From Eledone cirrhosa (taxonomy: Eukaryota): DNA of 64,000 nucleotides. Shown one piece after another: positions 1-11,789 of this stretch. The translations under genes were made by a program, and so were the position numbers. Positions within the stretch are counted from its first letter, which is position 1, and every line of letters begins with the position of its first letter. The stretch lies in assembly GCA_964016885.1 (NCBI GenBank), contig OZ024740.1, positions 231,446,001 to 231,510,000 of the forward strand, in the 5' to 3' direction. The notes beneath the pieces were generated by a model. The model did not search any database. It was not told the DNA's origin and saw nothing but the letters and a program-made list of their open reading frames with translations.

Positions 1-192
1 ACGTTATTCCGGGTTGAATCGGAGGTAACCACAGTAAGTAAGGTACTCAATACATTGCAGAGTATAAAAGTTTTAATATAGATGAGATTCTACAGGAGTA
101 GAACTGTTTCATTCTTTAGAAATCATCAGGAATCGTTCCTGATGATTTCTAAAGAATGAAACAGTTCTAGTCCTGTAGAATCTCATCTATAT
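1..192. mobile_element. Fold-back hammerhead element, family A (copy 1)
   Basis: Inverted repeat ~76-132 / 136-192 with a 3-nt loop (tcg) and one mismatch; unpaired extension 1-75; (TA)n on the right; near-identical copy at 11594-11789. Confidence 0.85.
86..134 (-). ncRNA. Type I hammerhead ribozyme, family A
   Basis: Minus strand reads gattc-CUGAUGA-tttct aa agaat-GAAACAG...CUGUA^-gaatc: stems I-III and a GUA cleavage triplet. Mirror copy on + at 136-180. Confidence 0.8.
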
Positions 193-241
193 ATATATAT
201 ATATATATATGAATATATATGTATATATATATATGAATATA

Positions 242-385
242 CATGCCAAACAACACGACGGTAACATAGACAACATAGAAATTAGAATAATATCTAAACA
301 TAGAAATGACCCAGCAGTTAGGCAAATCAGAGAGGCCAGTGAAATAGAACTTAGAAGACCAAGGCTGACCAGAAAGAATGAATAG
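242..385 (+). pseudogene. C-terminal fragment of a Penelope-like GIY-YIG endonuclease (5'-truncated element; 3' UTR runs to ~990)
   Basis: Manual translation HAKQHDGNIDNIEIRIISKHRNDPAVRQIREASEIELRRPRLTRKNE* fits the PLE EN tail pattern R.I.EA..I....P.LN...E; an HHR-like motif follows. Confidence 0.65.
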
Positions 386-693
386 AATAACAACAACACC
401 CAATCAAACAACACTGACCTAAGAGAAGTATAAATAAATAAATAGTTAAATAAATAAATAAATACATACGCAAGGACAATAACAACAAACACATATAAAC
501 ACCCACTAGTAAAGAGAGAATACGTTAACCAATACCCAGTCACCCAATAACGAACACACATCAAACAAAACACTATACACACACGCCAACACATGCGCAA
601 AGAAGACAAAATAAAATAAACAAATAAATAAATTTATAAACAGACTAAATAAAGATGGCGTAGAAAATACAATGCAACGGGAGGAAACAATAG

Positions 694-737
694 CACCACT
701 GACGATGTTGCAGATGTGCAACGAAAGAACTTTGATA
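694..737 (+). ncRNA. Degenerate minimal hammerhead ribozyme in a PLE 3' region
   Basis: cacca-CUGACGA-t gttgca gatg tgcaac-GAAA-gaac-UU-tgata; stem II perfect, stem I imperfect. Confidence 0.55.
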
Positions 738-999
738 AACTATATATATGTGTTTGTGTCTATATTGTATCTGTATTATTTTTGACCGTTGGTCAGTCAA
801 TGGCAACATTGAGGACCGAATAAATTAGATTACCGATATAAAAGACACAGAAGCGAAAACCAACCAAACAGTGAGTGTGTTCTGTTATTAATTCTGGCAA
901 TATTACACAAATATGACCCTCCCCAAGTATAACAATATTTGTTTCGACACACGATTTCATATCAAAAACCTTGCAAAACTAATTCATCGCCGTTATAAT

Positions 1000-2390
1000 A
1001 TATATATGAATATATATATATATATATTCATATATATATATATATATATATATATATATATACATATATATATATACATATATATATGTGTATATATATA
1101 TATATGTATATATATATATAGGTATATATATATATATATGTATATATATGTATATATGTATATATATATGTATATGTATGTATATGTATATGTATATATA
1201 TATGTATATATGTATATATATATATATATATATGTAGATATATATGTATATATATATATATAGATATGTGTATATATATATATATGTATATATGTATATA
1301 TATATATGTATATATATGTATAAACCAAACAGCAAGTATAACAATATATGTATATATATATATATATGTATATATGTATATATATATAAACATATATGTA
1401 TATATATATGTATATATATATAAATATATATGTATATATATATATATGTATATATATATATATATATATATGTATATATATATATGTATATATATATGTA
1501 TATATATATAAATATATATGTATATATATATATATATATATGTATATATATATATATATATGTATATATATAAATATATATATATATGTATATATATAAA
1601 TATATATGTATATATATATATGTATATATATATATATAAATATATATGTATATATATGTATATATATATAAATATAAATGTATATATATATATATATGTA
1701 TATATATATATGTATATATATAAATGTATATATATATATATATATATATATATATATATATATATAAAAATCTATATATATATCTATCTGCATTGCTTTA
1801 TTGTACTACAATAAAACTCACCTCCTACATTAAATCTATATATATATATGTATATTTATATATGTATATATATATGTATATATATGTATATATATATATA
1901 AATATAAATGTATATATATATATATGTATATATATATATATGTATATATATATATAAATGTATATATATATATATATGTATATATATATATGTATATATA
2001 TATATATGTATATTTATATATATGTATATATATATATATATATATGTGTGTATATATATATATATATATATATTTATATGTATATATATATATATATGTA
2101 TATATATAGATGTATATATATGTATGTATATATATATATATATATGTATATATATATATGTATATATATGTATGTATATATATATATATATATGTATATA
2201 TATATATATGTATATATATATATATGTATATATACATGTATATATGTATATATATATATATATGTATATATACATGTATATATATATATATATGTATATA
2301 TATATATATATGTATATATATATGTATATATATATATATATGTATATATATATGTATATATGTATATATATGTATATATATATGTATATA
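1000..2390. repeat. Degenerate (TA)n/(TATG)n microsatellite
   Basis: Direct reading. Similar tracts at 3000-3600, 4875-5740, 6130-7025, 7262-7934, 11960-12710, 13044-13415, 14040-14208, 17420-17581, 17781-18521 and 18700-19760. Confidence 0.95.
1785..1831 (+). mobile_element. 3' tail fragment of fold-back HHR family B
   Basis: tatctgcattgctttattgtactacaataaaactcacctcctacatt matches the family B tail at ~62914-62960 and, with a few mismatches, the reverse complement at ~12710-12755. Confidence 0.8.
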
Positions 2391-8615: not shown

Positions 8616-9773
8616 TTTGATTACTTTGAATGTCTATATTTATTAATATTTTAAATTAATATATATATATATATATATATATATATAGTAATAATAAAAT
8701 TGAAGACTAAAATCCAAAGAGGGCTCGATAAGGAAAATATATATCAAATATGTAAGAACCGTAGAGCAAATATTTATTAAAATAACAGATTAAAGTTTAA
8801 GCAAAGAATCGTTGCTTTCACCCTTAACGGGATCTTCTGAAACTGACAAAGTCAATCTGTAAACGCAGAACTGGATATTTCAAAAAACGTTGCAACCGGA
8901 GGAAGACAGGAAGACGATACTTTGGATTCGTGGAAACGTTCGCTGGCAAAGAACGGGGAAAAACGAATAATACGTCATTAATAGGAGCGGTGAAAAACAA
9001 TTACGCGCAAAGACAGAACCACGTCTATGGTATAAAAGAAGTCGTAGACTAATGTTCTCTTAGGTGGTGCATAGAGACGTTCTCTGGCAATGAACGAAAA
9101 AACGAAGATAATAAGTCGTATGTGGAGCGTGGAGAACAATAGCACGCAAAGACAAAACCACGTAAATGGTATAGAAGAAGTTGTAGACTAAAATTCTAAC
9201 CAGGAGACCAAATGAATCTCCGCTACAGGGTTAAGAACAAAGTAAATAAATACAATACAGAAGTAATAGAAACAAATAAATACATACACGCAAACAGATA
9301 CGTACATACACAAGCATACGCAAAACCTTACCATAGGTATACAAAACCACGCACATATAAATATGTGTGTGTGTGTATGCTTGTGTACAAATAAATAAAT
9401 AATTATATAAACGTATATAAGTAAATAAATACGTATATAACAAGCGCACACACATACCTACAAATAAATACACGAATGTTCGGAGACGTAAGTCAACTAA
9501 AACAAGAAGTACACATATACACACACCCACCATACGTACGAACCTGCATACTCACGCAGACGCAAAACTCCCGTATACACATAGCCAAACCCTAAATACC
9601 AGAATATGTAAAAATGATACGCCAAAACAGTCAAATATACGTACGAGAAGGTATACATACCTTCACAAAACATACGGGTAATATATACTTACCTATGCAA
9701 ATAAGTAAAGGAATAAACAAAACATATACTTAGCTCCCACATCAAGACGTAAAATATCCACGTATAGATCGTG

Positions 9774-10697
9774 CTATCCGTTAGGGTATAACGTGGGGCT
9801 GTAATACAGGAAAGTTTTGTGCAATTTATGTTTACAAGCCGAAATTGCCTCAAATTTTTTGTTTAAGATGTGGTCTGTGGCGTAGAATATTTCCAGGGCC
9901 TCAGCGGCGCAGAGGTCACATGGTCTTTTATTTCCGCTATACGAACTAGCCCTAGCTAGGATCTCCCAGTGTAACTTATATTGGGTGTGGTTATCTTTTA
10001 GACTCCAGATACAAGCTGAAAGTGACGTCATATTCCTTCTTAGAGGGTAACGAAAAGAATGGGTATGCATGTAAAGACGCTGCTTGAAACTATTGGCGGT
10101 TAACCCTATGTAGGCCCTACGGGACGTGGGTGTTACAACCTTACATTTGTAGACAATGTTACTAGAGAGGCATTTCCCGGATAGGGGGCAATCAGCCCGA
10201 TTCCTACAATTACAGTTAGTACTAACTACAGGGTTGCACGTGTTCCTACGGCTAGGTATTGAAATTTGAAGCTGTGATGTTATGTGCAAGGTTAGGAGTC
10301 GTAGAGTAAGAAATTTTAATAGTATTTCTATTAAAAATTTTACTATATTTATGTGTAGGGGAAAATGCTTCGTAATAAGGGAAAGAAAGATCTTAGCTAA
10401 TGGTGTGGCCACCTCCATATTATATGGTGGGTTATACCAACAAATGCGACGGGATCTATTTCTTCTAGGTCTATTTTCGTACTCTGTATATGCTACCTTA
10501 TCGACAAATCCACTTCGAGCAAGAGCTTTATTGTAATAAGTGGAATGGTCGTTGAAAATGCGCTCGTTGGTGGAAAGACGGGAAAGCCTCAACGAAACGT
10601 TTTTTACCAGGTTCTTGGTTATGCTGGCAAGATGGTTGGAATGCTTACTTATGTAATTAAGCGTATCATTCGGCTTTCTATACGGGTAAGAGAACAT
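9774..10697 (-). pseudogene. PLE RT thumb, Cys linker and GIY-YIG endonuclease (frameshifted)
   Basis: PYRKPND..YI...SNH; WYNPPY; CNCRNRADCPLSGKC (CxCx5Cx5C); IVYKC...AYIGLTANSFKQR; CDLCAAE...LN...E..SACKH. Compensating frameshifts near 10260-10360 (true frame HKYSKIFNRNTIKISYS). Confidence 0.85.
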
Positions 10698-10904
10698 TAG
10701 TCTACGACTTCTTTTATACCATAAACGTGGTTCTGTCTTTGCGCGTAATTGTTTTTCACCGCTCCTATTAATGACGTATTATTCGTTTTTCCCCGTTCTT
10801 TGCCAGCGAACGTTTCCACGAATCCAAAGTATCGTCTTCCTGTCTTCCTCCGGTTGCAACGTTTTTTGAAATATCCAGTTCTGCGTTTACAGATTGACTT
10901 TGTC

Positions 10905-10955
10905 AGTTTCAGAAGATCCTGTTAAGGGTGAAAGCAACGATTCTTTGCTTAAACT
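10905..10955 (+). ncRNA. Variant hammerhead ribozyme (CAGAAGA core), family C
   Basis: agttt-CAGAAGA-tcc(c/t) gttaa ggg t-GAAAGCA...UGCUU^-aaact; same core at 8794-8844 (-) and 4582-4632 (-). Confidence 0.65.
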
Positions 10956-11593
10956 TTAATCTGTTATTTTAATATATATATATATATATATATATATATA
11001 TATATAAAGCCATGCACCTTCACATACATATATATAAAAAGACCATAATTTTACTTTCACTTTTCCATGTTAGCAAGCATAAAGTAATGATGAACGGTTG
11101 TTTTTCACATGGATTATGTTTTTTTTAGCTGATGAAAAAATGTGTGATGTGTGTATATATATATATATATATATATATATATATATGTTTGACGTGTATG
11201 TGCTTGTGTGTGATGTGTGTGTATAAGTAAAGTATGTGTGTGTGTGATGTGTATGTATAAGTAAAGTATGTGTGTGTGTGATGTGTATGTATAAGTAAAG
11301 TATGTGTGTGTGTGATGTGTATGTGTGTGAATGTTTCAGTGCGATGTGTGTGTTTGAGATGTTTGATGTGATGTGTGTATATGTTTGTGTTTGTGTGTAT
11401 GTGTGTATGTGTGTATGTGTGATTGTGTGTGTCAATCAATGATAACTGTTTTTCAGCCACAACACCAATTATACAAAATACATCTTTCGATTTTTTTAAA
11501 TGTCTGTTATGTGTGTATATTATATATATATATATATACACACATATTAGTTTATATAATGTGCATTATATATATATATATATATATATATAT

Positions 11594-11789
11594 ACGTTAT
11601 TCCGGGTTGAATCGGAGGTAACCACAGTAAGTAAGGTACTCAATACATAGCAGAGTATAAAAGTTTTAATATAGATGAGATTCTACAGGACTAGAACTGT
11701 TTCATTCATTAGAAATCATCAGAGATTCCTGATGATTTCTAATGAATGAAACAGTTCTAGTCCTGTAGAATCTCATCTATATTAAAACT
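11594..11789. mobile_element. Fold-back hammerhead element, family A (copy 2)
   Basis: Perfect arms 11662-11722 / 11729-11789, 6-nt spacer, same left end as copy 1; (TA)n on both sides. Confidence 0.9.
11723..11773 (+). ncRNA. Type I hammerhead ribozyme, family A
   Basis: agattc-CUGAUGA-tttctaatgaat-GAAACAG ttctagtc CUGUA^-gaatct; 6-bp stem I, 4-bp stem III. Confidence 0.85.

What the first reader, a model, noticed from the sequence alone, without database searches (positions are those of the whole stretch)
1..11789. Family A recurs as a defined ~190-bp unit whose arms share copy-specific mutations
The copies at 1-192 and 11594-11789 share the acgttattcc long-arm end (copy 1 is at the window edge) and both fold within the 5' strand of HHR stem I. 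Copy 1 has ttctttagaa/ttctaaagaa in its two arms; copy 2 has ttcattagaa/ttctaatgaa. The substitution is mirrored within each copy, so both arms came from one template at insertion (cDNA snap-back) or were homogenised by arm-to-arm conversion.
Basis: partly seen in the sequence, partly recalled or inferred. Interest (0 to 1): 0.75.

Follow-up and report, generated by a model that had tools for sequence, protein, structure and literature searches.

The report
Twin-primed Penelope transcript-start palindromes
The two 190-base hairpins are real and are two of thousands of stubs of one Penelope-like jumping gene sitting in TA repeats; their mirrored change is a shared subfamily variant, and the arms likely match because both ends of the cut DNA each copied the front of the same RNA and were then joined head to head.

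Summary
In detail: copies at 1-192 and 11594-11789 carry TAAA/TAAA and TAAT/TAAT arms, and their flanks are unrelated. The unit is the front (+1 to +135) of a Hydra-clade Penelope-like retrotransposon (713-aa RT + GIY-YIG ORF). Its tail 30-mer has 8,070 exact matches; 11 of 30 sampled are such stubs.

The mirrored change is a subfamily variant: 522 TAAA/TAAA, 221 TAAT/TAAT and 11 discordant loci, against 317 expected at random. Arms then diverge independently (11/1025 sites), so there is no conversion.

Simple snap-back fits poorly. Either arm reaches further (21 vs 18), some arms do not overlap, and 34 of 35 pairs join one tailed and one tail-less arm.

Best model: both ends of the cut (TA)n target prime cDNA at two fixed RNA sites (about +135 and +60/+67). 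Both run to the RNA's 5' end, 30 nt below a TATA box, and are end-joined.

The architecture is published; I did not find this mechanism in five searches. The scan reached the same reading on other DNA of this genome. A 377-kb hammerhead satellite begins at one such insertion.

The parts
1..134 (-). Copy 1 tailed arm: element positions +2 to +135 (hammerhead motif plus 68-nt tail ending at the downstream inferred RT start site)
   Evidence: numbering from full-length copy L095
135..135 (.). Copy 1 junction: one untemplated base between the arms
   Evidence: L031, insertion of 1
136..192 (+). Copy 1 tail-less arm: +4 to +60, then (TA)n
98..98 (.). Change in one arm only (+38) in copy 1; post-insertion mutation inferred
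115..153 (.). Mirrored subfamily site +21 (TAAA) at 115 and 153, in hammerhead loop II
11594..11722 (-). Copy 2 tailed arm: +7 to +135; lacks the 5' strand of stem I
11723..11789 (+). Copy 2 tail-less arm: +1 to +67; holds six bases (+1 to +6) that the tailed arm lacks; ends at the upstream inferred RT start site
11723..11773 (+). Complete type I hammerhead-like motif (stem I 6 bp, CUGAUGA core, weak stem II with U at 10.1 and 11.1, GAAA, stem III 4 bp, GUA site at +45/+46); activity untested
   Evidence: fold of the same stretch in L066 gives the three-way junction but z = +0.64; no Rfam hit at gathering score
11708..11743 (.). Mirrored subfamily site +21 (TAAT) at 11708 and 11743
11567..11593 (.). 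(TA)n target on the tail side of copy 2 (also 11790-11811 on the other side; 193-210 for copy 1)

Best explanation
Each hairpin is one insertion of the front end of a Hydra-clade Penelope-like retrotransposon into a TA repeat, likely made when both ends of the cut DNA primed separate reverse transcription on the same RNA and the two products were joined head to head. Steps: (1) a partial-tandem source copy is transcribed from +1, 30 nt below a TATA box (sequence shown, start site inferred); (2) the GIY-YIG domain cuts (TA)n on both strands (target shown; two-strand cutting taken from PAc in vitro); (3) one DNA end primes at about +135 and the other at +60/+67 (fixed outer ends shown; priming inferred); (4) when the enzyme sits on the 5' pseudo-LTR both cDNAs run off at +1/+2 and give the 190-bp stub, and when it sits on the 3' pseudo-LTR the arms are hundreds of bases to kilobases long (lengths shown); (5) the two cDNA ends are joined through 1-3 nt microhomology or with 0-10 added bases (junctions shown; pathway inferred); (6) the arms then mutate independently (shown).
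For: Parent found: L095 has a 713-aa RT + C-terminal GIY-YIG ORF whose ATG follows the tail; 609 relatives at E<=0.001. Counts of exact 30/31-mers: 8,070 tail, 75 ORF start, 10,993 hammerhead. Concordance at +21 genome-wide for loops of 1-5 nt: 743 of 754, with 317 discordant expected at random; +53 is mirrored 7 times and discordant 0 times. No conversion: arm-arm 11/1025, single arms 6/983 and 5/983, tail 19/2604, Fisher p = 0.58. Symmetry: the tail-less arm reaches further in 21 and the tailed arm in 18 of 39 asymmetric junctions, p = 0.75. 34 of 35 inverted pairs in the position-ordered sample have one tailed and one tail-less arm, none has two tails (L079's deleted tail read). Arms that barely or do not overlap: L146 (+81..137 with +2..60), L117, L231. 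Tail-less arm kilobases longer in L097 and L099. Each product also occurs alone (+1..67 in L086, L088; +2..136 in L108), and full-length L095 ends at +67 with no tailed arm. Copy 2's junction occurs on 9 haplotypes among 29 loci, always mirrored, so it forms repeatedly. TATAAATA begins at -30; 11 of 20 ORF-start copies keep it upstream. PAc cuts and extends both strands, has two internal RT start sites that bound the tail, uses uncleaved RNA and is predicted to be a dimer (PMC11167929).
Against: The start site rests on motifs only; +1 is also the 5' edge of stem I, so a structural end cannot be excluded. Deletions at a palindrome centre after insertion could make some of the asymmetry. Concordant arms show one source, not necessarily one molecule: subfamilies active at different times or in different cells would give the same result. 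The 11 discordant loci are more than the roughly 3-8 expected from the measured mutation rate (my estimate), so a few two-RNA chimaeras are possible. The +60 end shares TATAT with the target and could be set by microhomology. Two copies start at +46/+47, next to the ribozyme cut site (L233, L209), so some templates may be cleaved. Samples come from the first places on contig C1 or from best hits, and the genome-wide count covers loops of 1-5 nt only. L112 (+63 with +86) does not fit the one-tail rule.
Confidence: 0.7

Rival explanations
1. cDNA snap-back: one cDNA primed at the tail reaches the RNA's 5' end, folds back and is copied until it rejoins the target near +60/+67.
For: Explains mirrored subfamily states. 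The commonest short junctions can be drawn as a 1-2 bp fold-back. The +60 end has TATAT microhomology with the target.
Against: The fold-back loop must lie on the tailed cDNA, but it lies on the tail-less arm in 21 of 39 asymmetric junctions, including copy 2. Tail-less arms extend 10 nt or more beyond the tailed arm in 8 of 35 pairs and by kilobases in L097 and L099. +67 is also a 3' end of non-inverted copies.
Confidence: 0.12
2. Self-priming on an antisense template, as proposed for rotifer PLE palindromes (PMC3846280).
For: A published explanation for head-to-head PLE palindromes. It also gives concordant arms.
Against: Needs an antisense RNA that ends at the sense TATA+30 position; does not give non-overlapping arms or solo +1..67 copies; outer ends match two fixed sites as in PAc.
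Confidence: 0.06
3. The 190-bp palindrome is itself a non-autonomous element copied as a unit from palindromic masters, with arms homogenised during copying.
For: At least 29 loci share copy 2's exact junction and most share its ends.
Against: That junction sits on 9 haplotypes; junctions in the unselected sample are diverse (20 loci); no one-arm change is propagated among unselected loci; stubs lack the TATA box; arm lengths form a continuum up to 4 kb.
Confidence: 0.08
4. Arm-to-arm gene conversion after insertion keeps the arms alike.
For: One mirrored change private to a single locus in the sample (L046, +38).
Against: About 40 one-arm changes in 111 loci; arms diverge as fast as the unduplicated tail. 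Mirrored changes are shared subfamily variants.
Confidence: 0.03

Closest known systems
Hydra clade of C-terminal EN+ Penelope-like elements (Craig et al. 2021, PMC8557442; passages, section 11 and supplement hits read), including Hydra-1_Obim
   Same: Single ORF of about 700 aa, RW(K/R), DKT, CxCX5C linker, CxxC and CxH around E/N, C-terminal GIY-YIG, hammerhead motif, (TA)n target
   Different: A different family from Hydra-1_Obim by the printed sequences (not aligned). L095 spans about 6 kb because of a 3.3-kb microsatellite-rich stretch, against <3 kb reported. Thousands of 5'-end stubs are not described in what I read.
Typical EN+ PLE insertion: inverted 5'-truncated copy, pseudo-LTR and one-sided 30-40-bp tail (PMC8557442; PMC3846280; PMC2377424; passages read)
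   Same: Head-to-head inverted copy, tail on one side only, palindrome at the junction, TATA/Inr-like motifs in the pseudo-LTR (PMC3846280)
   Different: The tail is 68-75 nt. Truncation piles up at one point (+1/+2). The papers ascribe the tail to endonuclease resolution and the palindrome to antisense self-priming; the data here favour two primed cDNAs.
PAc (Poseidon, green anole) in vitro (Frangieh et al. 2024, PMC11167929; abstract and parts 1-2 of 4 read)
   Same: AT-rich target, both strands cut and extended, two internal RT start sites bounding the tail, uncleaved RNA as main substrate
   Different: Poseidon clade; the ORF starts in stem II, whereas here it starts at about +183. The part read does not link the two start sites to the two DNA ends or to inverted copies.
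Opposite-strand pairs of minimal hammerheads 100-700 bp apart in Schistosoma PLEs (Cervera and de la Pena 2014, PMC4209133; passages read)
   Same: Hammerhead pairs on opposite strands from truncated PLEs
   Different: Noted without a mechanism; the motif here has a 4-bp stem III and lacks the G10.1-C11.1 pair
L1 twin priming (recalled, from no call)
   Same: Both target strands prime cDNA on one RNA and give an inversion
   Different: In L1 the two cDNAs abut and the second primer anneals by chance homology; here both start sites are fixed and the cDNAs usually overlap, giving a palindrome
Non-LTR retrozymes (bioRxiv 10.64898/2026.07.22.740005; part 1 of 5 read)
   Same: Non-coding, type I hammerhead, PLE-derived
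   Different: Retrozymes are head-to-tail arrays; the window copies are head-to-head. The 78-bp array on C28 meets the tandem criterion.

Membership tests
Hydra clade PLE (parent element) | Single ORF, RT then C-terminal GIY-YIG | tested here: met
   P0001: DIENYY, YRDDG, IVY...YIG; Pfam GIY-YIG weak (E 0.012, below cut-off); motifs conserved in 58-60 of 60 aligned relatives (60 of 120 listed were aligned)
Hydra clade PLE (parent element) | RWK motif and DKT in place of DKG | tested here: met
   RWR here (K in 49 of 60 relatives); DKT in 52-60 of 60; features
Hydra clade PLE (parent element) | CxCX5C linker; CxxC and CxH flanking E and N | tested here: met
   CNCLNKEAC, CDLC, CMH; each Cys/His in 57-59 of 60 relatives
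Hydra clade PLE (parent element) | No CCHH motif inside the endonuclease | tested here: inconclusive
   P0001 has two Cys inside the core, but they are shared by only 8 and 0 of 60 relatives
Hydra clade PLE (parent element) | (TA)n target and hammerhead motif | tested here: met
Hydra clade PLE (parent element) | Placement in the RT phylogeny with named Hydra families | not tested
   No tree with named families was built; assignment rests on motifs
EN+ PLE insertion unit | Partial tandem forming pseudo-LTRs | tested here: met
   11 of 20 ORF-start copies are preceded by the 3' UTR/TATA stretch; L095 ends in a second copy
EN+ PLE insertion unit | Inverted 5'-truncated copy with tail on one side | tested here: met
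   34 of 35 pairs; tail is 68-75 nt, longer than the 30-40 reported
EN+ PLE insertion unit | Target-site duplication | not testable with these tools
   Both flanks are (TA)n, so a duplication cannot be read
Type I hammerhead ribozyme | CUGANGA and GAAA core, stems I-III, NUH site | tested here: met
   related subfamilies keep the core and vary loop II
Type I hammerhead ribozyme | G10.1-C11.1 pair; Rfam model match | tested here: not met
   U at both positions; no hammerhead hit at gathering score
Type I hammerhead ribozyme | Self-cleavage | not testable with these tools
   Only 2 copies seen starting at +46/+47
Non-LTR retrozyme | Head-to-tail units each with a type I hammerhead | tested here: not met
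   Window copies are single head-to-head pairs; only the C28 and C1 arrays are tandem
MITE / foldback DNA transposon | Fixed terminal inverted repeats around a constant core, copied as a unit | tested here: not met
   Asymmetric ends, variable junctions, parent is an RT element

The most novel reading that the evidence does not exclude
Penelope-like elements integrate by double-ended target-primed reverse transcription: a dimeric enzyme holds one RNA, each half primes one end of the break at its own fixed RNA site, and the two cDNAs are fused at their 5' stops, so the class's inverted copy and one-sided tail are one reaction and no separate second-strand priming is needed. This family records it thousands of times in a minimal form bounded by the transcription start, and re-priming at the upstream site may have seeded a 377-kb hammerhead satellite.
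Probability: 0.5. Interest if true: 0.68.

Novelty: new member of a known kind. Interest (0 to 1): 0.42.

Why it matters
How Penelope-like elements form inverted copies and tails is named as unresolved in PMC8557442, and PMC3846280 proposes antisense self-priming. This family gives a large, young, countable record that favours two-ended priming and links the two in vitro start sites of PMC11167929 to the two DNA ends. It predicts start sites (+60/+67, +135) and an RNA 5' end (+1/+2) that can be tested directly. The stubs also put about three thousand near-perfect 55-65-bp hairpins into the genome (rough estimate: 11 of 30 times 8,070). The element class and the architecture are already known, and the scan has reached this reading before in this genome, so the specific locus adds numbers more than a new idea.

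Tried and rejected
Whole-window repeat finder was swamped by (TA)n. Rfam gave no hammerhead hit. A DNA search with the 76-nt tail gave nothing because common words are skipped. No RNA holder listed, so expression and the start site could not be read. Logan contigs of two runs of unknown kind were laid: depth steps up at +1 and down at +135, but contig depth is no copy number and I use it only as the lead to the tandem junction. Guess that matches 6 kb apart are full-length elements was wrong for L094 (unrelated LINE-like ORFs between) and right for L095. A reference with microsatellite flank gave unusable output and was redone. One core-integrity count used a wrong spacing (0 of 114) and was corrected (57 of 90). 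Extra G before +1 as a cap signature: 6 of 11 after removing one stem-I artefact; weak, and stem I could template the same base, so not used. Ribozyme cleavage as the cause of the fold point: rejected, ends cluster 45 nt upstream of the cut site. Segmental duplication, conversion and MITE readings rejected as above. Nine rows were dropped before the counts (no single tail, indel-shifted or duplicate matches); two rows from a diverged sister subfamily (L015 second hit, kept; L002 second hit, dropped) account for most listed 'mirrored singletons'. Search by sequence in earlier findings returned nothing.
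Full report
Observation. Each has a long arm, a short inverted arm and (TA)n on both sides; the bases before window position 1 are (TA)n too. The mirrored TAAA/TAAT difference is real. Copy 1 also has a change in one arm only (window 98). The junctions and short-arm ends differ between the copies. Their flanks share only a 42-bp inverted hit and short low-complexity hits, so this is not a local duplication.

What it belongs to. The genome has 3.0 Gb; earlier notes call it an octopus, which I did not test. A 31-mer of the hammerhead motif has 10,993 exact matches, the tail 30-mer 8,070 and the ORF start 75. 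Locus L095 holds a full-length parent: the unit's sequence, then a 713-aa ORF with RT and C-terminal GIY-YIG, a long microsatellite-rich stretch, and a second copy of the front end. Numbering from the A of AGATTC as +1, the hammerhead motif spans +1 to +51, the tail +68 to +135, and the ATG lies at about +183. The protein has RWR, DKT, CxCX5C, CxxC and CxH, conserved in the 60 relatives aligned. These are the marks of the Hydra clade (PMC8557442 section 11), which also inserts in (TA)n. An inverted truncated copy with a one-sided tail is the typical PLE insertion.

The mirrored change. Among palindromes with loops of 1-5 nt, 522 are TAAA/TAAA, 221 TAAT/TAAT and 11 discordant; random pairing would give 317 discordant. 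The site is linked to tail variants at +68 and +80, so it marks subfamilies. Arms pair by locus (0.33 vs 1.21 differences; 0 of 2000 permutations; 101 loci including best-hit sets). After insertion the arms drift apart freely: in 43 loci not chosen by best hit, arm-arm differences are 11/1025, each arm differs from the reference at 6/983 and 5/983, and the unduplicated tail at 19/2604 (Fisher p = 0.58). About 40 one-arm changes stand against one mirrored change private to a locus. Conversion is therefore rejected, and one template or source per insertion is supported.

Why not snap-back. A fold-back of the tailed cDNA cannot put into the short arm bases that the tailed arm lacks. Copy 2 has six such bases. 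The tail-less arm reaches further in 21 of 39 asymmetric junctions and the tailed arm in 18. In the position-ordered sample 35 inverted pairs were found among 61 loci examined; 34 join one tailed and one tail-less arm, 22 have both arms starting between -12 and +9, and 8 have a tail-less arm longer by 10 nt or more (counts read from its table). L146, L117 and L231 have arms with little or no overlap. L096 and L098 have arms of 3-4 kb; in L097 and L099 the tail-less arm is kilobases longer. The +67 end also closes non-inverted copies such as L095, and both short products occur alone. Copy 2's junction appears on 9 haplotypes among 29 loci, so the same joint forms again and again.

Why the fold is where it is. 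Upstream of +1 the parent has TATAAATA starting at -30 and CCAGATT across +1; the match to TATA and initiator consensus is from my own knowledge. Eleven of 20 ORF-start copies keep this stretch in a partial tandem and three start at -5 to -1 (two of the three share a flank). In D. virilis the transcript also starts within the upstream pseudo-LTR, though from a TATA-less internal promoter (PMC2377424). The fold point is thus most likely the RNA's 5' end. It is 45 nt upstream of the ribozyme cut site, so the template was mostly uncleaved, as for PAc; two copies start at +46/+47 and may come from cut RNA. No RNA data could be read.

Mechanism. PAc cuts and extends both target strands, starts at two internal sites that bound the tail, and is predicted to dimerise (PMC11167929). 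Applied here: each end of the cut (TA)n primes one cDNA, at about +135 and at +60/+67; both run to the 5' end; the ends are joined by 1-3 nt microhomology or with up to about 10 added bases. The tailed cDNA must pass through the other's territory and is the one cut short in most strongly asymmetric stubs. Shown: ends, junctions, concordance, independent drift, parent. Inferred: start site, two-ended priming, one molecule, joining pathway. Confidence 0.7.

Novelty. The class, the clade and the architecture are published. I did not find the two-ended reading or this family in five searches; the library lacks most subscription papers, and I read only parts of the six papers, with supplement look-ups for PMC8557442 alone. 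I stated this reading before opening the scan's notes; those notes hold the same reading for other families in this genome and are not independent support.

In passing. The strand excess (6,644 vs 4,349) comes from an array on C28 of 78-bp units (-13 to +63), from about 30,496,750 to 30,873,600 with at least one interruption, about 4,800 units by length (sampled, not read in full). It opens with an inverted tailed arm of this family, the same layout as the window copies. Units differ from their majority by 4.3%, and 57 of 90 keep the core. Whether re-priming or later unequal exchange built it is open.

Verdict. Real feature, new family of a known kind, with good quantitative support for a mechanism that is testable and not settled in print as far as I could search. 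Interest 0.42.

Noticed in passing
G000:C28:30,496,550-30,873,600 (L257-L262, L266-L268, L271): About 377-kb tandem array of 78-bp hammerhead-bearing units of this PLE, opening with an inverted tailed arm of the family; at least one interruption near 30,871,250
   Followed up: partly
L265 (G000:C1:350,200,250-350,200,850): Eight-unit copy of the same 78-bp repeat with the same unit junction, not flanked by (TA)n
   Followed up: partly
L096, L098 (C1:2.875-2.883 Mb; 38.770-38.779 Mb): Head-to-head insertions of the family with arms of 3-4 kb (96.5% identical in L098)
   Followed up: partly
L095:1340-4300: About 3.3 kb of microsatellite-rich sequence inside the parent's 3' region, carried along in other long copies
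   Followed up: no
L002, L015, L126, L144, L252, L254: Diverged sister subfamilies with the same layout, changed loop II and changed stem I
   Followed up: no
window 7950-8323, 12807-13032, 17655-17779, 23245-23564, 24389-24948, 26713-27579, 62536-62871: Seven further inverted repeats of other families, several beside (TA)n and several with CTGATGA cores; 12807 and 62536 are related
   Followed up: no
window 61763-61820 (-): Partial tRNA-like match just above Rfam's gathering score (29.8 bits), possibly a SINE head
   Followed up: no
L094:3084-6539: Broken ORFs resembling an AP-endonuclease/RT LINE between two family copies (motifs judged by eye)
   Followed up: no
L233, L209: Copies starting at +46 and +47, at the predicted ribozyme cut site
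   Followed up: partly
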